A DNA stretch of 64,000 nucleotides from a phage: assembly GCA_037431425.1 (NCBI GenBank), contig GCA_037431425.1_4129.1; one strand, written 5' to 3'. Below, in pieces: positions 1-56,415 of the stretch; position 1 is the stretch's first letter; every line of letters starts with the position of its first letter. A model generated the notes under the pieces. The model saw only the letters and a list, made by a program, of their open reading frames with translations, was not told the origin of the DNA and ran no database searches. Position numbers and translations under genes: made by a program.

Positions 1-954
1 TATGATGATTACATTATGTGTGGATTAGATGCTGGTATGTTCTATGGTGCACAGAAAGATTTTGGTCATCAACATACTATTACTACTTGGCAATCATTTA
101 ACTCTCTATGGAAGAAAACCAAAAAAGGTGAAATTGAATTAACAGAACAAGACGTAAATGATTTTATTGATGGGGTAGTTTGTGTTATAGTTGATGAGTG
201 TCAAGGTGCTGGTGGTGATGCATTAGTTCAAGTACTATCTAAAGTTATGAACAACGTACCATTGCGTTGGGGTCTTACTGGTACAATTCCGAAAGATCCG
301 GTTGTTGCAGCGAAAATCAAATGTAATGTTGGTGATGTTATATATAAAATCACTGCAAAGGAATTACAAGATAAAAAGATACTAAGTACATGTAATGTGA
401 ATTGCATTAAACTAAAAAGTAGTATGAAGTTTGCATCATATGCTGAAGAGTTGAAATACTTAGTAACTGACAGAGATAGAATGGCATATGTAGCGTCATT
501 GATATCTGCGTTATCTGAATCAGGAAACACTTTAGTTTTAGTAGATAGACTTGAAGCAGGTGAGTTGCTATGTGAATTTTTAGGTATTCCCAAATCAGAA
601 TTCGTTCGTGGAGAAACTAAAAAGAAAGATCGAGAATCATCTTATGGTGAAATTCGTTGGGCTGATAATAAAATACTTATTGCGACATACGGCGTTGCCA
701 GTACTGGTATCAGTATTTCAAGGTTATACAATGTAGTATTGATTGAACCTGGAAAAAGTTTCGTAAGAACTATACAATCAATCGGACGTGGTTTACGCCG
801 TGCTGAAGATAAAGACCATGTTGAAATATATGACATTAGTGGTTCTAATAAGTATAGTGCAAAGCATTTACGTGAGCGTCTCGCTTACTATAAGGAAGCA
901 CAATATCCTCATACAGTAATAGACGTTAAAGATTGGGAAAACACAGCGGGATAA
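1..954 (+). CDS. SF2 DNA helicase, C-terminal portion (5' end outside window)
   Basis: Reading frame is open to position 1; DECQ (motif II), TGT (motif III) and QSIGRGLRR (motif VI) present; stop at 952-954. Confidence 0.7.
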   Translation, partial: YDDYIMCGLDAGMFYGAQKDFGHQHTITTWQSFNSLWKKTKKGEIELTEQDVNDFIDGVVCVIVDECQGAGGDALVQVLSKVMNNVPLRWGLTGTIPKDPVVAAKIKCNVGDVIYKITAKELQDKKILSTCNVNCIKLKSSMKFASYAEELKYLVTDRDRMAYVASLISALSESGNTLVLVDRLEAGELLCEFLGIPKSEFVRGETKKKDRESSYGEIRWADNKILIATYGVASTGISISRLYNVVLIEPGKSFVRTIQSIGRGLRRAEDKDHVEIYDISGSNKYSAKHLRERLAYYKEAQYPHTVIDVKDWENTAG

Positions 955-963
955 TCCCGCTGT
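943..963 (+). terminator. Hairpin overlapping helicase stop codon
   Basis: acagcggga / tcccgctgt 9-bp inverted repeat with the TAA stop in the loop; weak T tract after. Confidence 0.4.
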
Positions 964-982
964 TTATGATATAATATGACAT

Positions 983-1435
983 ATGACAACAACAAGGATG
1001 TATAATAAAATGGAATTAAGATCTAGTATTGCTTTTATCTGTGACCAAGAAACGTTAGATGTTATTGATGTATTGTTGAATGATGATGGTATCATGGATG
1101 ATATGGTGTCTTCTCTTGACTATATCCCTGAACTAGAAACTGATGATACTAATGTATGGAGGTGTAACATTGATAGTGATTCTTGGATTAATATCTATGA
1201 ATTGCAATCACGAATTGATTCTAAAGTCGAATCATTAAAATATGATATAATCTATGCCAGTACTGACACGAAAACTTTCATCGATGTTGTAAGTCTAAGT
1301 GGTAATTTTGATTCATATCTGGATACTGATGTTGATAAAATTCAAGAGATGTGTGAAACTTATGGACTTGAATTTTATGGACAAGAAGAACTGGATGATG
1401 AAGATTATTATGATGATGAAGATTCACAGTATTAA
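983..1435 (+). CDS. Highly acidic small protein (hypothetical)
   Basis: 150-aa ORF, D/E-rich throughout with DDEDYYDDEDSQY tail; follows terminator-like hairpin. Confidence 0.55.
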   Translation: MTTTRMYNKMELRSSIAFICDQETLDVIDVLLNDDGIMDDMVSSLDYIPELETDDTNVWRCNIDSDSWINIYELQSRIDSKVESLKYDIIYASTDTKTFIDVVSLSGNFDSYLDTDVDKIQEMCETYGLEFYGQEELDDEDYYDDEDSQY

Positions 1436-1444
1436 GGAGATAAC

Positions 1445-1942
1445 ATGAACGTACTAACACCCGAAAATATTTCGTTTGATATGGATTTAGTGACAGAACA
1501 TATCCCCGAAGAAATGTATTGTGTTTTGGACCTAAGTCCTAATGGTGAATCTGATTTTTATTTTAGACATATTTTAAACACGGTGTCATTTAATAGTATC
1601 AGTGCTGATCTCCAGATTGGTGAAAAAGTTATTCAAGTCCCGTTAGGTTGGCAAATTATGTTAGGCGATGAAGATACTGGTATGGTTGAGATGTGTACAA
1701 TTGAAAACATTCTTAACATGAAAGAACCAAAAGCTTTTGTTTACAATCCTATCCGTTCAATGTATCCTAAGTTTGAACCAGTAAAAGTTCTACGTGTATT
1801 TGCATTAACTACAAAGTGGCAAATTCCGATGTTACCTAAGAAGAATTTACTATGTGTACCATTGAATGGTGGTGAAAATCCACCATGTGTGTACTTTGCT
1901 GATGAAAATGAAAAAATTCAAGATTTATATCTAGGAGTATAA
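1445..1942 (+). CDS. Hypothetical protein
   Basis: 165-aa ORF, AAGGAGA RBS just upstream, tightly packed with neighbours. Confidence 0.55.
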   Translation: MNVLTPENISFDMDLVTEHIPEEMYCVLDLSPNGESDFYFRHILNTVSFNSISADLQIGEKVIQVPLGWQIMLGDEDTGMVEMCTIENILNMKEPKAFVYNPIRSMYPKFEPVKVLRVFALTTKWQIPMLPKKNLLCVPLNGGENPPCVYFADENEKIQDLYLGV

Positions 1943-1946
1943 AATA

Positions 1947-2792
1947 GTGTTTGATTTCAGTGATATTAAAAATAAGTCAGTCGATGATGATAATAAACCA
2001 ACCCAGCATTCTTTTTCTATTGCTGAATTTCTAAAACACATTGACCGTGCAGATTATAAGTTCTATAATGAACTGACGGAAAAAGAACAAAAAGAGTTTA
2101 CACCATATACTGTATTACGATGGGTAAGCTCTTTGGATGATTCACTACAAGTCACATATCCCAGTAGTAAAGTTGAAAGTGTATTTGGTAAATGGAAAGC
2201 TGGTGGTAAAGAAGCACTAACTGAACTAGTAACTGAATTAAAGGCTTCTGGAACTAAGGTTTCATCAGTGACGAAGTACTGTCATGGTGATTATGATTGG
2301 CGTATTAAATTTGCAGTCCAATCAAAAGATGATGCACATAAATTAATATCATCAATGATGGAATTTGGTGTCTCCGGTTCTGAAATTATTTCATTAGTAG
2401 ATACTGAAGTAGTGAAATACCAACTTATTATGCTAAATGATATGGTTAATGATGGTTTCTGGGATATGAAAGAACATCCAGAATTAGTATATCAACTTAT
2501 GTGTTCTGTACATGATATGATTGGTGCACAAGAAATGCCACGTAATTGGCTGAATTTTTCTAAAAATTTCAAAAAGGCAAATAATGAATTATTTGATTTG
2601 ATTAAAAATTCACAGCCTGATACTATCGCTACTCAAATGAATGAAGATGAGTACAAAATTGTTTTATTACAGTATGATAAAAAAACATTTGAAACATTTC
2701 TTGACAATAATGGTTTTCAAGATAATGAAAAGAAATCTATGATGAAATTATTTAAAGAAGAATGCAAAAAATATGGCAAAGAAATCAAATAA
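1947..2792 (+). CDS. Hypothetical protein
   Basis: 281-aa ORF with GTG start preceded by GGAG; same strand operon. Confidence 0.55.
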   Translation: MFDFSDIKNKSVDDDNKPTQHSFSIAEFLKHIDRADYKFYNELTEKEQKEFTPYTVLRWVSSLDDSLQVTYPSSKVESVFGKWKAGGKEALTELVTELKASGTKVSSVTKYCHGDYDWRIKFAVQSKDDAHKLISSMMEFGVSGSEIISLVDTEVVKYQLIMLNDMVNDGFWDMKEHPELVYQLMCSVHDMIGAQEMPRNWLNFSKNFKKANNELFDLIKNSQPDTIATQMNEDEYKIVLLQYDKKTFETFLDNNGFQDNEKKSMMKLFKEECKKYGKEIK

Positions 2793-3483
2793 ACAAGTAT
2801 ATACGTGTAAATTTTGTGATCGTGAATTTAAGCGAGAAGAAACAGTACAGACACATAAATGCATAAAACGTGACAGATACGAAAATAGACAAAGCCGCCA
2901 GATGATGGAGGCGTTTCGTATCTATATGCAATTTATGGAATTGAACAAATTTACATTTAAAAAAGGCGTAGAGCCTTTTATTGCTTTTATAAAGTCAAAG
3001 TACTTTAACGATTTTTATAGTTTTGCTGAATACTATTTGAATAATAGAGATATTATTAATGTTGACGAGTTTGTAAAGTACTTAATTATTAATAATAGAC
3101 CAATTACAGAATGGAGTACTTACAAAGCAAAAGATGAATGGATATTAAAAACGATTCGTTCTGAGCACCCAAAAGAAGCGATTGCAAGAAGTGTGATATC
3201 GTTGGTTGAATGGGCTGAAAAATTGAATGTACAATGGAATACTTTCTTTAAAAATGTGAGTTCTGCCCGTGCAATTGCATGGATTGAGAGTGGGAAAATA
3301 TCACCATGGATCATTTGGTTATCTCCAAAACAAAGTACTAATACATTTTTTAAAAAGCTATCAAACTCAGAAATTGAATACATACTTAAATACATTGATC
3401 CAAGTTATTTTGAAATTAAAACGATCAAATATAAAACGGATTGCGATGAAATTAAGAGTATGCTACGTGAGGCAGGATTATGA
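2773..3483 (+). CDS. Hypothetical protein with N-terminal C-x2-C...H-x-C zinc-finger-like segment
   Basis: 236-aa ORF; CKFCDREFKREETVQTHKC near N-terminus. Confidence 0.5.
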   Translation: MAKKSNKQVYTCKFCDREFKREETVQTHKCIKRDRYENRQSRQMMEAFRIYMQFMELNKFTFKKGVEPFIAFIKSKYFNDFYSFAEYYLNNRDIINVDEFVKYLIINNRPITEWSTYKAKDEWILKTIRSEHPKEAIARSVISLVEWAEKLNVQWNTFFKNVSSARAIAWIESGKISPWIIWLSPKQSTNTFFKKLSNSEIEYILKYIDPSYFEIKTIKYKTDCDEIKSMLREAGL

Positions 3484-3809
3484 ATGGAAAAAGTATATAT
3501 AATAAAATACCAGAAGGGTATGTACCTGTACCAAAAGAACAAAAAACAAAACAAATATCTCTTCTTAGACAAGGATCTATTACTGAAATAACTTTGGATG
3601 GTAAAACATTTCAAGTTCATGATCCCGCTCGTGTTGAAAAAATAATTTCTTTAGTAGAACGACATGAAGAACGTTTTTTTAGTTTAAGTCAAGAGTTAGC
3701 AAAGACGAAACAAAATTATAAAATATTAGAGAATCAAATAACCACCTTGACTAATACCGTTAAACAGTTACAGGAGCAAGTAAAAAATGCAGGATTTGAC
3801 CGATTCTAA
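3480..3809 (+). CDS. Hypothetical coiled-coil protein
   Basis: 109-aa ORF, start overlaps upstream stop (ATGA). Confidence 0.5.
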   Translation: MNGKSIYNKIPEGYVPVPKEQKTKQISLLRQGSITEITLDGKTFQVHDPARVEKIISLVERHEERFFSLSQELAKTKQNYKILENQITTLTNTVKQLQEQVKNAGFDRF

Positions 3810-4425
3810 ACATTACAGAAAAGCCAGAACTGATATTGATATTGACTTCAAGGATAGTAAAAGCGTCATCGCTAAACTTCCATGCGTGCGAAGTACTGAG
3901 AAAATTACTGAGGATGGTTTAATACCACATAATAGTGGTGTTCATTTTGATAATATACCAATTGACCCAATCACTGGTTTGGCAAGTATACAATATAAAG
4001 AAGCTGAAAGGTTAGGGTATCAAAAAGTTGATATTCTTTCACAGTCAGCTTACATGTATGTTCGCGATAGAGAGCATTTAAAAGAACTAATGAATCAGGA
4101 ACCGAATTGGGATCTTTTACTAGAACCCGAAATTGTAGAGCATCTTTCACAAATTAAAAAACACGTAACTTTATTAAATGTATGGAAGCCTAAATCAATT
4201 GACGAACTTGCAATGTTTATTGCTATGATTCGACCAGGAAAAAGGCAGTGCCAAAGTATGAACACATGGGACGAAGTAAAAGCCACCATATGGGATTATA
4301 GCACTATCGGCACTGACCAATCAGGAAATAAATTACGATATTTCAAAAAGCCACATGCTTATGCATATAGCTTAATGATTGTAGTCCAACTAAATGCTTT
4401 AGTTGAACACCTTACTTCTTCTTAA
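3787..4425 (+). CDS. Hypothetical protein
   Basis: 212-aa ORF. Confidence 0.5.
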   Translation: MQDLTDSKHYRKARTDIDIDFKDSKSVIAKLPCVRSTEKITEDGLIPHNSGVHFDNIPIDPITGLASIQYKEAERLGYQKVDILSQSAYMYVRDREHLKELMNQEPNWDLLLEPEIVEHLSQIKKHVTLLNVWKPKSIDELAMFIAMIRPGKRQCQSMNTWDEVKATIWDYSTIGTDQSGNKLRYFKKPHAYAYSLMIVVQLNALVEHLTSS

Positions 4426-4822: not shown

Positions 4823-5800
4823 ATGGCTCATCACGGCGTGTTTATGTACCCTTATAATCAGGAAGTATCATTGGGCAATTTTAATATGCCATATAGCAAT
4901 GAAAAACTAACTATATATAAAGGGGCAAATAATAATTTATCTTTTACTGTTCACAACGCTGATGGAAAGTATACTTTATTGAAAGAAAATGAATATCTTA
5001 CATTTATGATTTTTGATGTACGAAATAACACTAAACTATTCGATGTTGTTTTGGAAAAACAAGAACCAAGTTGGCTATCCGAAAGCGGTCAGGCCCGACA
5101 AACATTGGGAAATAAAAAGAAAGTATATTATGGATGTATTGTTCCAGCAGGTGTTATCCAAGATACCAGTCCTGGTTCCAAATATAGATGGAGTATCACT
5201 AAAGTAACAATGGATGGTTCACTTGTAGAACCAACACAATATCTATATACAGGTATGAACTATGAAGCATCAGCAGAGTTAATTATTTCAGACCGTGCTG
5301 TACCTGTATTTGTCCCTAGTACTGAAATATCTGTCAACCAAAATTCAGCATGGACAACTATTAAGCGTTTATATCCTGAGCCTATTGGTAATGGTATGAT
5401 TGGGGAATATGATATTCTTGCATCAACACCACTCCCTGCACAAATGCAGTTTGGGTTGGTTGATGGATTGAGCAGTATAGCAATCTATTTTGATAAATTT
5501 ATTGGTAGGATACAGCTTCAAGGGTGTTTGTGTAATGACGTACCAAATGATAATGAAAACTATAAATGGTTTATTATTAAATTAGATGGGAAGGATTATA
5601 TTGAAAATGGGATGGATGTAGAAGGATTTCCAGAAGAACTCAATGGAATTCAAGCATTTAATTTTAAAGGAAATTATATGTGGTTGAGAATTGTAGTAGC
5701 TATTCATCCTAAAACTGTCCCAGTGCCGTATGACTATGCTGCTGTGAGAAAACTGTATGACCCTTTCTTAACTGTACCTAAAATTTTGATTCGCAGGTGA
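4823..5800 (+). CDS. Hypothetical protein (possibly structural)
   Basis: ATG at 4823 preceded by GGAAGGA RBS; track ORF 4757 trimmed to this start. Confidence 0.5.
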   Translation: MAHHGVFMYPYNQEVSLGNFNMPYSNEKLTIYKGANNNLSFTVHNADGKYTLLKENEYLTFMIFDVRNNTKLFDVVLEKQEPSWLSESGQARQTLGNKKKVYYGCIVPAGVIQDTSPGSKYRWSITKVTMDGSLVEPTQYLYTGMNYEASAELIISDRAVPVFVPSTEISVNQNSAWTTIKRLYPEPIGNGMIGEYDILASTPLPAQMQFGLVDGLSSIAIYFDKFIGRIQLQGCLCNDVPNDNENYKWFIIKLDGKDYIENGMDVEGFPEELNGIQAFNFKGNYMWLRIVVAIHPKTVPVPYDYAAVRKLYDPFLTVPKILIRR

Positions 5801-5826
5801 GACAAAACCCGAAGTTGTGCTATAAT
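5798..5826 (+). promoter_or_regulatory. Sigma70-type promoter with extended -10 (TGcTATAAT)
   Basis: TATAAT at 5821-5826 preceded by TG at 5818-5819; -35-like tgagac 17 nt upstream; about 30 nt before primase start. Confidence 0.55.
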
Positions 5827-5855: not shown

Positions 5856-6911
5856 ATGAACGCTGTACAAAACATAATGGCACAAATAATGAATGACCCA
5901 GTACCTGCAATTGGCACATGGACACATCACAACTGTCCCGCATGTGTGTTCAGAGGACATTCGAGGCCGGACATAAAGAACCGTGGTAATCATATGTTCA
6001 ATGCCGATGGTTCTGTTTCATATAACTGCTTTAACTGTAGTTTGAAAACTGGCTGGCAACCAGGAAAATATATGAGCAAAGATATGGAGTCTTTGCTCAT
6101 TTCTTTTGGTGCACAAGATAAAGAAATAGAATTAGTTAAGTTTTATATTAAAGAAATGGTTGATAGTGGTGAATATGCTACACAAGAAACCGTTGTAACA
6201 AAATTATATGACCGAATAACGGTACGTGATTTACCATCAAATGCTAAAACATTTTGGGATTGGGCTTCACTACCAGAAGATAAAATTCCGCAAGAATTTT
6301 TGAGTGTTTTACATCATGTAAATGAAAGAAATCCATATTTGTTGGATTTGGAATTATATTGGTCACCTAATAAAGAACATAAAATGTATGATAGATTTAT
6401 GATTCCTTATTACATGAATGGTAAAATAATTGGTTATACAGCGAGACATAAATTAAAAGATCCCGGAAGCACATACAGATTTATAAATCAGGTAAGTACT
6501 AATATATTGTATAATTATGATTTATTAAAAGATGACAGAATAAAAACGATTTTGGTATGTGAAGGACCGTTGGATGCAGCATTGATGGGTGGTGTATCTG
6601 CTAATAACTTTAAATTATCAAACTTGCAAATTGACGTATTAAAAGATGCCCAGAAAAAAGGGAAAAGGATAGTTATTGTTCCAGATAGAGACAAAGATGG
6701 ATTAATAACAATAGACCAAGCACTTGAAAATGGATTCAGTGTGTCTTTCCCTGATTTTGGAACAGTAAGAGAAGGTAGTACGATACGTCATATCAAAGAT
6801 TTTGAAGAGGCGTGTTCGCGATTTGGTAGGTTATTTTGCTTACAATTGATACATGATAGTATAGTAGATGAGCCATTTTATATTAAAGCTCAAACTGATA
6901 AATGGATGTAA
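5856..6911 (+). CDS. DNA primase, DnaG/T4 gp61-like (zinc-binding plus TOPRIM)
   Basis: CPAC...CFNC zinc motif near N-terminus; TOPRIM glutamate in ILVCEGPLDA and DxD in IVIVPDRDKDG. Confidence 0.8.
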   Translation: MNAVQNIMAQIMNDPVPAIGTWTHHNCPACVFRGHSRPDIKNRGNHMFNADGSVSYNCFNCSLKTGWQPGKYMSKDMESLLISFGAQDKEIELVKFYIKEMVDSGEYATQETVVTKLYDRITVRDLPSNAKTFWDWASLPEDKIPQEFLSVLHHVNERNPYLLDLELYWSPNKEHKMYDRFMIPYYMNGKIIGYTARHKLKDPGSTYRFINQVSTNILYNYDLLKDDRIKTILVCEGPLDAALMGGVSANNFKLSNLQIDVLKDAQKKGKRIVIVPDRDKDGLITIDQALENGFSVSFPDFGTVREGSTIRHIKDFEEACSRFGRLFCLQLIHDSIVDEPFYIKAQTDKWM

Positions 6912-13550: not shown

Positions 13551-13886
13551 ATGAGGTTTAGTGATCTTACTGAAGAGGCTCCTGGAAAAGATATACGCAA
13601 TATGATTACGACTATTGCGTTGTCTTTAATGTCCACTGGTAGAGAAGATGTGAATGTTCAATCTTTAATTTCTGAAATTAAAAAGAGAACCAATATAGAT
13701 GTTCCATACAATGTGATGATGGATATTTTGAATTCCCTACCTTTTGTACAGGATGCTAATTCAGATATTGTAACTTTTGTTGGAAATTCAGCAGAAGGTT
13801 CAGGTGAATCTGAACAAAATTCGGAAGAGCAAGTTGAAGATTGGGCAACAAAAGCTGCTGTGACAGCAAATAAACAAAAAAACTGA
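13551..13886 (+). CDS. Hypothetical protein
   Basis: 111-aa ORF. Confidence 0.5.
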   Translation: MRFSDLTEEAPGKDIRNMITTIALSLMSTGREDVNVQSLISEIKKRTNIDVPYNVMMDILNSLPFVQDANSDIVTFVGNSAEGSGESEQNSEEQVEDWATKAAVTANKQKN

Positions 13887-13925
13887 AACAAATAAAAATA
13901 TAATGCTATAATTAGGAGTACACGG

Positions 13926-38235: not shown

Positions 38236-38713
38236 TGTGAAATGTAATCTTAATGCAGTTGTTTATGCAATCAACTGTGGTGCAGATATCCAGTACTTAC
38301 AATTACAGGAAATCGATGAACCTGAAAGGTTAAAATTCAATGATAACTGTAAAAAATTTGGTTTAGAGCAACGTATGCTGGATTATACCATTGAACATGA
38401 TAAAAATCATGAACTTTGGCGTTATGATCCAGTATATGATAATATAAATCTACGTGACTTTTTTTTACAAAAGTGTACCTCAGATGAAGCACGAACACGT
38501 GTTGAGTATGAGCTTGAATTATATGAATATTATAATATGACAAAACTATTAAGATGTATGATCTGGCTCGTTGATTACATGGAAGAACATGAAATCTTTT
38601 GGGGTCTAGGGCGTGGAAGCTCTGTTGCATCATATTGTTTATACTTGATTGGATTACATATGGTAGATTCATTGAAGTATGACCTTGATGTGAACGAATT
38701 TTTGAAATGGTAG
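38195..38713 (+). CDS. Hypothetical protein
   Basis: 172-aa ORF; start uncertain (overlaps upstream gene by 41 nt). Confidence 0.45.
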   Translation: MKVQGNRFISPNGDVKCNLNAVVYAINCGADIQYLQLQEIDEPERLKFNDNCKKFGLEQRMLDYTIEHDKNHELWRYDPVYDNINLRDFFLQKCTSDEARTRVEYELELYEYYNMTKLLRCMIWLVDYMEEHEIFWGLGRGSSVASYCLYLIGLHMVDSLKYDLDVNEFLKW

Positions 38714-38755
38714 ATAAACATGTGATATAATGTCTATTGTAGTTATTATATCACA
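38702..38755 (+). promoter_or_regulatory. Sigma70-like promoter inside an 11-bp perfect inverted repeat
   Basis: tgtgatataat (38721-38731) and attatatcaca (38745-38755) separated by 13 nt; the left arm contains TGaTATAAT. Confidence 0.5.
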
Positions 38756-54885: not shown

Positions 54886-55346
54886 TGAACATTGAGGAAA
54901 TAAAAAATCATTTTGAAATTGCATTGTCTTGTGATTTTGATAGTTGTTATGTTACTGAACCAGAAGATATAATTAGAATTTCCACATCGTTTTCAGAAGA
55001 ATACAATATACTCATTGAGAAATCATATGACAGAACCGAACTCTCATTTTACAATAAGGATTTACGAACAACATCATTTATATTATTATATAACACAACA
55101 TCGGATATAATAGAGATTATAACAAGTAAAACAGGTAAAACAAGTAAAGATGTACATTATGAGACTATACCAAATGTAAGTTATTGTTCAACAGAAGAAG
55201 GATACTTCCAGGAATCACTTATTAAAAATTTATCAGTTAGCTATTCTGATTTAAGCATTATAGTCAATTATGTGGAAAAGTTAAATGATTTCGTTCTATC
55301 GATGTTTGATATCACTGAGCAAAAACCAAAGGAAATCAAATGTTAA
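54882..55346 (+). CDS. FQxS-motif paralogue family member
   Basis: C-terminal TEEGYFQESLIKNL; ATGA overlap. Confidence 0.55.
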   Translation: MMNIEEIKNHFEIALSCDFDSCYVTEPEDIIRISTSFSEEYNILIEKSYDRTELSFYNKDLRTTSFILLYNTTSDIIEIITSKTGKTSKDVHYETIPNVSYCSTEEGYFQESLIKNLSVSYSDLSIIVNYVEKLNDFVLSMFDITEQKPKEIKC

Positions 55347-55795
55347 ATCCTGGACATTTTTTTCATTTACTGGACATTACACCTATACCCGATTTAATCA
55401 GCGAGACTAATCATTATCGTGATATTGGAATTGTATCAATGGAATATGATTCACCTGACTTTAAATGTTACGTAACATACGATCAGGTGGCTTATGAGTC
55501 AGAGCCTGCGATTAAAAAACCATCATATATTTTTGTGTTCATATATAATGATTATAGTGGTGATGTACTGAATGATGTTCATATTGACACATTTGAAATA
55601 TGTGGTAATATTATATCAGATGATTCAGCATCCACATTTGATTTGGAATTAAACAGTACTGAAGAGTCACTTTTTCAGTTGAGTACTATATGTGATACTA
55701 TATTAACTCTAGATGACATTGAGAAATTTAAAGAACAGCTTGACGCAGTTCGTGAGATGTTCTATAATCATTATCCAGAAGTAGAGTTCAATTAA
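55340..55795 (+). CDS. FQxS-motif paralogue family member
   Basis: C-terminal TEESLFQLSTICDT. Confidence 0.55.
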   Translation: MLNPGHFFHLLDITPIPDLISETNHYRDIGIVSMEYDSPDFKCYVTYDQVAYESEPAIKKPSYIFVFIYNDYSGDVLNDVHIDTFEICGNIISDDSASTFDLELNSTEESLFQLSTICDTILTLDDIEKFKEQLDAVREMFYNHYPEVEFN

Positions 55796-56148: not shown

Positions 56149-56400
56149 ATGAGTGAACATAGTGCGGTGCTTAAAAAGATTTTAAAGGAAATTGATGGTG
56201 AGTTTAATGTCACAGAAGAAGAATATCAGCATTGGAAGAAAGATTTCGAACAACTAACCGAGTATGATAAAGTGTTCAATATGATTGGCGTAATTAGCCA
56301 GTACTTACTTGGTGGAGGACGTGCAAGTGCTTCAATTCTGGCATCTGCAATCATCTGTACATCACGATGGTGTGATGAAAAAAGTTTGGAAGATTTCTAA
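56149..56400 (+). CDS. Hypothetical protein
   Basis: ATG 56149 with GGAG upstream. Confidence 0.45.
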   Translation: MSEHSAVLKKILKEIDGEFNVTEEEYQHWKKDFEQLTEYDKVFNMIGVISQYLLGGGRASASILASAIICTSRWCDEKSLEDF

Positions 56401-56415
56401 ATAAGATGCTATAAT
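56386..56415 (+). promoter_or_regulatory. Sigma70-type promoter with extended -10 (TGcTATAAT)
   Basis: TATAAT 56410-56415 with TG 56407-56408; TTGGAA about 18 nt upstream. Confidence 0.5.

What the first reader, a model, noticed from the sequence alone, without database searches (positions are those of the whole stretch)
983..1435. Strongly acidic 150-aa protein as a candidate DNA-mimic or anti-restriction factor
The protein is D/E-rich along its length and ends in DEDYYDDEDSQY. It sits at the head of an early operon straight after a terminator-like hairpin. Small, highly acidic early proteins are the usual form of DNA-mimic inhibitors of restriction or nucleoid proteins. This is inference from composition only.
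Basis: inference. Interest (0 to 1): 0.35.

Follow-up and report, generated by a model that had tools for sequence, protein, structure and literature searches.

The report
Acidic tailed protein beside phage UvsW helicase
This is a real, extremely acidic small protein of a Rak2-like jumbo phage. It is a fixed part of the DNA replication and recombination gene block, sitting right after the UvsW helicase gene, so it is more likely a replication or recombination accessory factor than an early anti-restriction weapon.

Summary
The ORF is real and is the most acidic in the window. It follows a genuine hairpin and its own extended -10 promoter. The true start is almost certainly ATG 1010, giving 141 aa rather than 150.

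The window is an Asteriusvirus jumbo phage, 99% identical to Escherichia phage ph0011. The protein belongs to an orphan family (phrog_16541) with no Pfam, NCBIfam or PDB sequence match.

A confident AlphaFold model (pLDDT 87) shows a ferredoxin-like alpha/beta domain and a disordered acidic tail. It has no significant structural neighbour, and no known DNA mimic appears among the listed matches.

Homologues down to about 20% identity keep three things:
- an acidic domain (net -14 to -24);
- an acidic tail with an aromatic residue at or near the C-terminus;
- the same position, directly 3' of uvsW, in a conserved SSB–UvsX–UvsY–exonuclease–UvsW–[this gene]–…–primase–DnaB block.

In phage CBB its promoter belongs to the class found at DNA-synthesis genes, not to the predicted early region. 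T4 UvsW.1 has the same position, acidity and acidic tail ending in Phe, but it is not homologous.

Best reading: a non-homologous UvsW.1-like accessory factor with an SSB-style acidic tail. An anti-restriction role is unsupported. Generic DNA mimicry is not excluded.

The parts
16..954 (+). C-terminal part of the UvsW-like SF2 helicase, the upstream neighbour. The gene runs off the window start.
   Evidence: PHROG DNA helicase families and Pfam Helicase_C. Annotated as helicase or UvsW-like in ph0011, 121Q and RaK2.
943..963 (+). Terminator-like hairpin (ACAGCGGGA-TAA-TCCCGCTGT) overlapping the helicase stop codon, followed by TTTAT.
   Evidence: Energy -15.4 kcal/mol, z = -4.8. Called an ARNOLD terminator in the G17 record. 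Not picked up by the consensus scan because the T-run is short. Unrelated hairpins sit at the same junction in L005, L008 and L010.
967..975 (+). Extended -10 promoter element TGATATAAT.
   Evidence: Conserved upstream of the orthologue in PBECO4, CBB, GAP32 and RaK2. The CBB copy is published as promoter Porf_282. TGNTATAAT occurs 24 times in the window against 9.3 expected.
993..997 (+). AAGGA ribosome-binding site for the ATG at 1010.
   Evidence: Read directly from the sequence. AAGGA is conserved at the same place in the other genera.
1010..1435 (+). Coding sequence of the 141-aa acidic protein (phrog_16541), including the stop codon. The 983 start is a non-conserved mechanical extension.
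1010..1381 (+). Globular acidic alpha/beta domain (residues 1-124; net charge -22). Secondary-structure order is beta-alpha-beta-beta-alpha-beta-beta-beta-alpha, a ferredoxin-like core.
   Evidence: AlphaFold2 model with pLDDT 87.4 overall and above 90 in the core. Charge by region. Conserved acidic columns.
1382..1432 (+). Disordered acidic C-terminal tail QEELDDEDYYDDEDSQY (net -10, 3 Tyr, terminal Tyr).
   Evidence: pLDDT is below 50 for residues 128-141. The tail is conserved in charge and aromatic content across the family. In 48 of 50 members the last aromatic residue lies within 3 residues of the C-terminus.
1445..4425 (+). Five co-oriented, tightly packed or overlapping downstream genes of unknown function (165, 281, 236, 109 and 212 aa). 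With the acidic gene they form the transcription unit.
   Evidence: ORF list. PHROG families of unknown function. The same order is kept in all related loci.

Best explanation
The gene encodes a conserved accessory protein of the phage's own DNA replication and recombination machinery. It is a non-homologous functional counterpart of T4 UvsW.1. A compact, very acidic alpha/beta domain carries a flexible acidic tail that ends in an aromatic residue. This is the same kind of tail that SSBs and T7 gp4 use to dock onto basic DNA-binding surfaces of polymerases and helicases.

Proposed mechanism (inferred). The tail, and perhaps the acidic domain, binds a DNA-binding surface of UvsW or a neighbouring replisome or recombination protein. 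Candidates are the gp32-like SSB, UvsX, primase-helicase and polymerase. Binding would act as a single-stranded-DNA-like competitor or adaptor that regulates loading, hand-off or activity at forks and recombination intermediates.

What is shown: the composition, the predicted fold and disorder, the family-wide conservation of charge and tail, the strict synteny, and the promoter class. What is inferred: the binding partner and the regulatory effect.
For: 1. Strict synteny. The gene lies immediately 3' of uvsW, inside an SSB-UvsX-UvsY-exonuclease-UvsW-[gene]-...-primase-DnaB block. This holds in Asteriusvirus, Mimasvirus, Alcyoneusvirus, a Vibrio jumbo phage and four uncultured lineages, at only 20-40% protein identity.

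2. Conserved charge and tail. The acidic domain (net -14 to -24) and the acidic tail with a near-terminal aromatic residue are kept throughout the family. The tail is predicted to be disordered.

3. The T4 UvsW.1 parallel. T4 UvsW.1 occupies the same position after uvsW. It has 29% D+E and net charge -12, and it ends ...DSDDEVEESF. Of 69 homologues, 68 end in Phe after an acidic run.

4. Precedent for acidic tails. Disordered acidic C-terminal tails mediate the T7 SSB-polymerase contact (PMC12339929). T4 UvsW is reported to bind gp32 through gp32's acidic tail (title of Perumal et al. 2013, seen).

5. The clade's SSB lacks such a tail. The gp32-like SSB has a neutral-to-basic amphipathic tip (net 0 to +2 over the last 45 residues in five of six lineages, -3 in the sixth), unlike T4 gp32. 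An acidic tail supplied in trans would therefore make sense.

6. Promoter class. The orthologous CBB promoter belongs to the class enriched at DNA-synthesis genes.
Against: - No partner was identified, because co-folding was not available.
- There is no homology to UvsW.1: hhalign probability is 0.2% and there is no PF11637 hit. UvsW.1's own function is also experimentally unknown (PMC1524935), so the analogy transfers little mechanism.
- The protein evolves faster than its neighbours: 26-65% identity, against 57-83% for the next gene. That pattern would also suit a host-directed, arms-race protein.
- Small acidic DNA mimics that target host RecBCD are likewise encoded next to recombination genes, so context does not separate the two ideas cleanly.
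Confidence: 0.45

Rival explanations
1. It is a host-directed DNA mimic that protects replication and recombination intermediates. It would occupy the DNA-binding site of a host nuclease or DNA-binding protein, most plausibly RecBCD, as lambda Gam, T7 gp5.9 and perhaps P22 Arf do. Alternatives are a nucleoid protein or host SSB partners.
For: It is small and exceptionally acidic, with 22 conserved acidic positions. Known RecBCD-inhibiting mimics are small, highly acidic, structurally unrelated to each other, and encoded with phage recombination genes (PMC9836394). Here the gene follows uvsX-uvsY-exo-uvsW. It diverges faster than its neighbours.
Against: It has no sequence or structural relation to any known mimic. 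It is present at a fixed position in every lineage of the clade that was examined, whereas anti-host genes are usually patchy. A conserved tail with a terminal aromatic residue points to a specific peptide-docking interaction rather than bulk duplex mimicry. The hosts of the uncultured members are unknown.
Confidence: 0.25
2. This is the first reader's specific proposal: an Ocr/ArdA-like anti-restriction protein that blocks type I (or other) restriction-modification enzymes early in infection.
For: Composition only: very acidic, small, and first gene of a transcription unit.
Against: There are no Ocr or ArdA Pfam hits in any of 24 members, even at E up to 10. The predicted fold is an alpha/beta ferredoxin-like domain plus a disordered tail, with no significant PDB neighbour. 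The gene lies in the replication module behind a replication-class promoter. The predicted early region of the related phage CBB is elsewhere, at CBB_390-546. It is a core, syntenic gene across distant phages.
Confidence: 0.06
3. It is a small ligand- or metal-binding regulatory domain of the ACT / PII-like / YubB-like ferredoxin fold. It would sense a nucleotide or divalent cation and modulate replication or nucleotide metabolism, and its acidity would be incidental to that role.
For: The best structural neighbours, though weak, are ACT, NikR C-terminal and PII-like SbtB domains. In the viral library they are 'YubB ferredoxin-like' proteins. Asp79, Asp92 and Asp101 are invariant, and Asp86 and Asp107 nearly so, in the beta4-beta6 region. 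This could form a cation site.
Against: All PDB matches have E of at least 0.01 and TM-scores of 0.3-0.5, so they show a generic fold only. No Pfam ACT, PII or DUF1281 hit was found. This idea does not explain the conserved acidic, aromatic tail.
Confidence: 0.1

Closest known systems
Bacteriophage T4 UvsW.1 (Pfam PF11637)
   Same: The gene lies immediately 3' of uvsW on the same strand. The protein is small and very acidic (T4: 29% D+E, net -12). The C-terminal acidic run ends in an aromatic residue: 68 of 69 UvsW.1 homologues end in Phe, and 37 of 50 members of this family end in an aromatic residue.
   Different: There is no detectable homology: hhalign probability is 0.2%, there is no PF11637 hit, and a UvsW.1 HMM finds nothing in the window or the related loci. 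UvsW.1 is a 76-aa helical protein, called 'trihelical' in PMC7824862. This protein is a 124-aa alpha/beta domain plus tail. In T4 the gene is co-transcribed at the end of uvsW, whereas here it has its own promoter and heads a six-gene unit.
Acidic C-terminal tails of replication SSBs and T7 gp4 (T7 gp2.5, T4 gp32, E. coli SSB-Ct)
   Same: It has a disordered, D/E-rich C-terminal tail with an aromatic residue at or near the end, and it is encoded among replisome genes. The T7 SSB tail docks onto a basic patch of the polymerase, and reference titles in that paper report that its terminal Phe is essential. T4 gp32 ends ...DDTDLDDLLNDL.
   Different: The body is not an OB fold and is itself strongly acidic, so it is unlikely to bind DNA. 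The clade has a separate gp32-like SSB, and in five of six lineages that SSB has no acidic tail.
Phage DNA-mimic inhibitors (T7 Ocr, ArdA, lambda Gam, T7 gp5.9)
   Same: It is small, has a very low pI and carries many surface Asp/Glu residues. Gam and gp5.9 are also encoded beside recombination or replication genes.
   Different: It belongs to none of these families by sequence. Gam and gp5.9 are described as small helical dimers. That Ocr is an elongated helical dimer is my own recollection. The predicted fold here is alpha/beta with a floppy tail. No target is known. It is a core syntenic gene rather than an accessory one.
Ferredoxin-like regulatory domains (ACT, NikR C-terminal, PII-like SbtB; 'YubB ferredoxin-like domain' proteins of viruses)
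   Same: It shares a beta-alpha-beta-beta-alpha-beta core topology and gives weak Foldseek matches.
   Different: The matches are not significant (PDB E of at least 0.01; TM-scores 0.3-0.5). There are extra strands and a helix, no family signature, and an extreme charge.

Membership tests
Ocr / ArdA-type anti-restriction DNA mimics | Sequence membership in the family (Pfam Ocr or ArdA models) | tested here: not met
   No Pfam family at E up to 0.1 for the protein. None of these families appears among hits at E up to 10 for 24 family members.
Ocr / ArdA-type anti-restriction DNA mimics | Structure that imitates the shape and charge of duplex DNA | tested here: inconclusive
   The model is an alpha/beta ferredoxin-like domain plus a disordered tail. 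No known mimic appears among the top 50 PDB matches, and none has E below 0.01.
Ocr / ArdA-type anti-restriction DNA mimics | Expressed first, from the early or leading region | tested here: not met
   The gene lies in the replication module. The orthologous CBB promoter Porf_282 is in the class enriched at DNA-synthesis genes, and the predicted early region is CBB_390-546. No transcriptome for this clade was found.
Ocr / ArdA-type anti-restriction DNA mimics | Inhibits type I restriction-modification enzymes | not testable with these tools
   Needs plating or binding assays.
RecBCD-inhibiting DNA mimics (lambda Gam, T7 gp5.9) | Small, highly acidic protein encoded with phage recombination or replication genes | tested here: met
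   141 aa, net charge -32. It follows uvsX-uvsY-exo-uvsW. The properties of Gam and gp5.9 are taken from PMC9836394.
RecBCD-inhibiting DNA mimics (lambda Gam, T7 gp5.9) | Homology to Gam or gp5.9, or a helical dimeric architecture | tested here: not met
   No Pfam hit. The predicted fold is alpha/beta. Oligomeric state was not tested.
RecBCD-inhibiting DNA mimics (lambda Gam, T7 gp5.9) | Binds RecBCD at its DNA site | not testable with these tools
   Needs biochemistry or complex prediction.
T4 UvsW.1 (PF11637) | Gene directly downstream of uvsW, on the same strand | tested here: met
   Window 16-954 (helicase) is followed by the gene at 1010-1435. The same order is seen in all related loci. 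T4 arrangement.
T4 UvsW.1 (PF11637) | Small acidic protein with an acidic tail ending in an aromatic residue | tested here: met
   UvsW.1 homologues: median 29% D+E, and 68 of 69 end in Phe. This family: tail net charge -4 to -16, and 48 of 50 have their last aromatic residue within 3 residues of the end.
T4 UvsW.1 (PF11637) | Sequence homology to PF11637 | tested here: not met
   hhalign probability 0.2%. No PF11637 among Pfam hits for 24 members. UvsW.1 HMM hits in the window and loci all have E of about 1 or more.
T4 UvsW.1 (PF11637) | Small all-helical fold | tested here: not met
   The model has eight strands and three helices. UvsW.1 is described as trihelical (PMC7824862).
SSB-type acidic C-terminal tail module | Disordered D/E-rich C-terminus with a terminal aromatic or hydrophobic residue | tested here: met
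   pLDDT is below 50 for residues 128-141. The tail is QEELDDEDYYDDEDSQY. Family statistics.
SSB-type acidic C-terminal tail module | OB-fold ssDNA-binding body | tested here: not met
   Ferredoxin-like alpha/beta model, with no OB-fold protein among the Foldseek hits listed. The domain has net charge -22.
SSB-type acidic C-terminal tail module | Tail docks on polymerase, helicase or other replisome proteins | not testable with these tools
   Needs co-folding or binding assays.
T4 gp33 late-transcription co-activator | Homology to gp33, which is a small acidic helical protein | tested here: not met
   hhalign probability 0.2% against T4 gp33. The fold is alpha/beta. I considered gp33 because the CBB paper reports gp55 but no gp33 or gp45.
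ACT / PII-like / YubB ferredoxin-like domains | Significant structural or sequence match | tested here: inconclusive
   PDB E of at least 0.01 and TM-scores of 0.3-0.5. BFVD 'YubB ferredoxin-like' hits have E about 1e-3 and TM-score about 0.4. No Pfam hit.

The most novel reading that the evidence does not exclude
In Rak2-like jumbo phages the acidic partner-recruiting tail that other systems carry on the SSB itself may have moved onto a separate, free-standing, new-fold acidic protein encoded next to uvsW. In five of six lineages examined, the clade's gp32-like SSB has a neutral-to-basic tip instead. The protein would then be a trans-acting 'SSB tail', or single-stranded-DNA mimic, that couples UvsW, the SSB and the replisome. 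That would also suggest what the long-uncharacterised T4 UvsW.1 does.
Probability: 0.2. Interest if true: 0.6.

Novelty: new variant of a known kind. Interest (0 to 1): 0.35.

Why it matters
Rak2-like jumbo phages lack recognisable homologues of several T4 replisome parts: the clamp gp45, gp62 and the helicase loader gp59 (PMC5259590). They also carry a conserved block of unknown genes between uvsW and the primase gene. Assigning this acidic tailed protein to the UvsW/replisome interaction network gives a testable entry point into that block.

It also offers a second, independent example of a 'small acidic protein with an aromatic-ended tail' after uvsW. That could help explain T4 UvsW.1, which is conserved but functionally uncharacterised. 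If the protein instead proves to be a host-directed mimic, it would be a new DNA-mimic fold. Either way the practical consequence is modest unless experiments follow.

Tried and rejected
- **Sequence-family searches.** Pfam, NCBIfam and PDB searches of the protein and of a 21-sequence profile gave nothing.
- **Structure searches.** Foldseek with two models against the PDB, and with one against BFVD, gave only generic ferredoxin-like matches plus family members.
- **gp33 analogue idea.** Rejected on hhalign and fold.
- **UvsW.1 homology.** Rejected.
- **Paralogues in the window.** None. The second acidic ORF at 55340-55795 is unrelated.
- **Expression timing.** I looked for a PA5oct homologue in order to borrow its RNA-seq timing. 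Four tblastn searches with the window protein and distant members returned only Rak2-like phages and one Vibrio phage; a fifth also gave two weak, unexamined Mycobacterium-phage records.
- **Transcriptome literature.** A search for transcriptome data on this clade found nothing usable.
- **YubB/DUF1281 literature.** The search was uninformative.
- **Alignment-based locus search.** It failed because no stretch of the alignment was conserved enough. I used exact-protein look-ups instead.
- **Full CBB-type promoter motif.** TGRAAY-N14-TGNTATAAT is not matched upstream of this gene in the window, where the hairpin occupies the -35 position. Only the extended -10 element is present.
- **Neighbouring genes.** The 165- and 212-aa neighbours gave no PDB matches, and all neighbours gave no NCBIfam matches.
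- **Perumal et al. 2013.** The paper could not be read. Only its title is used.

Full report
**What the window is.** The first 6 kb of the window is 99% identical to Escherichia phage ph0011 and about 92% identical to PBECO4, 121Q and other Asteriusvirus jumbo phages of about 350 kb. The window has 33% G+C.

**The observation.**
- ORF 983-1435 (+) exists, is 150 aa long and ends DEDYYDDEDSQY.
- It has 26% Asp+Glu, 6% Lys+Arg and net charge -30. It is the most acidic of 85 ATG-started ORFs of at least 100 aa in the window, where the median Asp+Glu is 13.6%. My own titration estimate puts the pI near 3.1.
- The start needs correcting. Annotators of four related genomes begin the gene at the ATG equivalent to 1010. 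The PHROG profile aligns from residue 10, and all homologues begin MEL....
- An AAGGA ribosome-binding site lies at 993-997. In PBECO4 the upstream frame contains a TAA stop, and the upstream stretch is not conserved in CBB, GAP32 or RaK2.
- The protein is therefore 141 aa with net charge -32.

**Hairpin and promoter.**
- The hairpin at 943-963 has a 9-bp stem and overlaps the stop codon of the upstream helicase. Its energy is -15.4 kcal/mol, z = -4.8, and 0 of 200 shuffles fold as well.
- The G17 annotators called it a terminator. Its T-run is short, and the consensus scan here did not list it.
- Non-homologous hairpins occupy the same junction in three distant relatives. There is none in CBB or RaK2.
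- Just downstream lies an extended -10 element, TGATATAAT (967-975). It is conserved in Asteriusvirus, Mimasvirus and Alcyoneusvirus.
- The gene is followed by five tightly packed or overlapping same-strand genes up to 4425. 'Head of an operon after a terminator-like hairpin' is therefore correct.

**'Early' is not supported.**
- The CBB paper lists the orthologous promoter, Porf_282 (TGGAATG-N13-TGATATAAT), in a divergent promoter class. Eleven of its 18 copies lie in CBB_258-329, where the DNA-synthesis genes are.
- The predicted early host-takeover region of CBB is CBB_390-546 (PMC5259590).
- In the window this full motif occurs before the primase gene and at three other places. Upstream of the acidic gene only the extended -10 part is present.

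**The protein family.**
- It belongs to phrog_16541, of unknown function. There are no Pfam, NCBIfam or PDB sequence matches. Scanning 24 diverse members against Pfam at E up to 10 gave no consistent family.
- Word-seeded homology search found 60 clusters. All those that carry a source name are called hypothetical proteins, from Rak2-like phages or enterobacterial assemblies.
- tblastn against phage genomes found 73 records, all Rak2-like jumbo phages and all annotated as hypothetical where annotated at all.
- A full HMM scan of 1.84 billion representative proteins added about 20 distant clusters. One matches a hypothetical protein of Vibrio phage 2.275.O at 33% identity.
- Members are 128-156 aa long. 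Both the globular part (net -14 to -24) and the tail (net -4 to -16) stay acidic at 20-30% identity.
- The tail nearly always carries an aromatic residue at or within three residues of the C-terminus, in 48 of 50 members.
- Twenty-two domain positions are at least 70% Asp/Glu. Asp79, Asp92 and Asp101 are invariant in the 50-sequence alignment, and Asp86 is nearly so.

**Structure.**
- With a 50-sequence alignment AlphaFold2 gives pLDDT 87.4 and pTM 0.79, with the core above 90.
- Secondary-structure order is beta-alpha-beta-beta-alpha-beta-beta-beta-alpha. Residues 128-141 are disordered.
- Foldseek against the PDB gives nothing below E = 0.01 with either model. The best neighbours are generic ferredoxin-like domains (ACT, NikR C-terminal, PII-like SbtB) with TM-scores of 0.3-0.5.
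- Against predicted viral structures, only family members match well. Weak matches follow to 'YubB ferredoxin-like domain' proteins.
- No known DNA mimic appears in the lists. Because DNA mimics are structurally diverse (PMC9836394), this does not exclude mimicry, but it removes any positive structural support for it.

**Genomic context.**
- The surrounding order in ph0011, PBECO4 and 121Q is RecA/UvsX, UvsY, DnaQ-like exonuclease, UvsW-like helicase, this gene, five unknown genes, one reverse-strand gene, a ~325-aa protein annotated as structural, primase and DnaB-like helicase. A gp32-like SSB lies just upstream of RecA.
- The same order, gene for gene, is found in CBB, GAP32 and RaK2. It is also found in Vibrio phage 2.275.O and in four uncultured lineages fetched through distant family members.
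- This is the behaviour of a core module gene, not of a variable anti-defence gene.
- Within the module the acidic protein diverges relatively fast: 57, 65, 40, 29 and 26% identity to five relatives. The next gene (165 aa) keeps 83-57%, and the 212-aa gene keeps 73-55% in the three relatives where it could be compared.

**The T4 UvsW.1 parallel.**
- In T4 the gene directly after uvsW is uvsW.1. It is conserved in T4-like phages and its function is unknown (PMC1524935). It has been proposed as a partner of UvsW (PMC7824862).
- Translating the end of the fused uvsW CDS in the T4 record gives the 76-aa UvsW.1. It has 29% Asp+Glu and net charge -12, and it ends ...AELEDSDDEVEESF.
- Of 69 full-length homologues, 68 end in Phe after an acidic run.
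- UvsW.1 and the window protein therefore share position, small size, strong acidity and an acidic tail ending in an aromatic residue.
- They are not homologous. hhalign gives probability 0.2%, there is no PF11637 hit, and a UvsW.1 HMM finds nothing in the window or the related loci. Their folds also differ, helical against alpha/beta.
- tblastn with UvsW.1 matched 1342 phage records. All those listed are 157-230 kb T4-like phages, and no Rak2-like phage was listed.

**The tail and the clade's SSB.**
- Disordered acidic tails are the device by which replication SSBs contact their partners, as in T7 gp2.5 with the polymerase (PMC12339929). Reference titles in that paper report that the terminal Phe of gp2.5 is essential.
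- T4 UvsW is reported to bind gp32 through gp32's acidic tail (title of Perumal et al. 2013; the paper itself could not be read).
- T4 gp32 ends ...SSSADDTDLDDLLNDL.
- The gp32-like SSBs of this clade instead end in a Pro/Ala/Thr-rich linker. A conserved amphipathic tip follows, such as SASALVARLKQQGK or SDLLAKLKAAKGE. Net charge over the last 45 residues is 0 to +2 in five of six lineages and -3 in the sixth.
- This is compatible with, but does not prove, an arrangement in which an acidic tail is supplied by a separate protein.

**Conclusion.**
- Best-supported reading (confidence about 0.45): a replication or recombination accessory factor, functionally analogous to UvsW.1. Its acidic, aromatic-ended tail, and perhaps its acidic body, would dock on a DNA-binding surface of UvsW or another replisome protein.
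- Main rival (about 0.25): a host-directed DNA mimic of the Gam or gp5.9 type that protects recombination intermediates. Context alone cannot separate these two, because such inhibitors are also encoded beside recombination genes.
- A ligand- or metal-binding ferredoxin-like regulator is a minor alternative (about 0.1).
- What is shown here: composition, predicted fold, disorder, family-wide conservation of charge and tail, synteny and promoter class. The partner and the mechanism are inferred.

Noticed in passing
outside the window: L017:4868-5926 (ph0011 SSB); also L005:2809-3801, L006:2741-3814, L008:1803-2963, L010:1152-2174, L012:2881-3906: The gp32-like SSB of this phage clade has no acidic C-terminal tail in five of six lineages. 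It ends in a Pro/Ala/Thr-rich linker and a conserved amphipathic, neutral-to-basic tip (for example SDLLAKLKA..K). In ph0011 the N-terminus (SLAEIRAHLKAEQ) resembles the C-terminal tip. T4 gp32 ends in an acidic ...DDTDLDDLLNDL.
   Followed up: partly
window 1445-1942 and 3787-4425: The 165-aa and 212-aa proteins of unknown function in the same operon are more conserved across the clade (83-57% and 73-55% identity) than the primase and the DnaB-like helicase. They have no Pfam, NCBIfam or PDB match. They are candidates for replisome parts reported as missing from CBB: gp45, gp62 and gp59.
   Followed up: partly
window 5798-5826, 13884-13912, 38703-38731, 56387-56415 (+): These are copies of the CBB-type 'divergent RpoD-like' promoter motif TGRAAY-N14-TGNTATAAT: 4 found against 0.45 expected. 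The first lies just before the primase gene. The extended -10 element TGNTATAAT alone occurs 24 times against 9.3 expected.
   Followed up: partly
window 2773-3483: The 236-aa operon protein begins with a C2H2-like zinc-finger motif (CKFCDREFKREETVQTHKC). The Pfam zf-C2H2 hits are weak and below the curated threshold.
   Followed up: no
window 55340-55795: This is a second markedly acidic ORF (151 aa, 19.9% D+E, 4.6% K+R). It is unrelated to the family studied here.
   Followed up: partly
window 6072-6100: A long inverted repeat (12-bp stem, ATGAGCAAAGAT...) followed by a T-run lies inside the primase coding sequence. The scan listed it as terminator-like on both strands.
   Followed up: no
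L001:1375-3954 (ph0011) versus L003:2470-3954 (121Q) and L008:5783-7933: The UvsW-like helicase is annotated as 860 aa in ph0011 but about 494 aa in 121Q, and it is 716 aa in one uncultured relative. The N-terminal extent of this gene varies or is annotated inconsistently.
   Followed up: no
L006:10582-11184: One uncultured relative carries an extra gene with weak I-TevI/NUMOD3 hits, like a homing endonuclease, inserted within the otherwise conserved operon downstream of the acidic gene.
   Followed up: no
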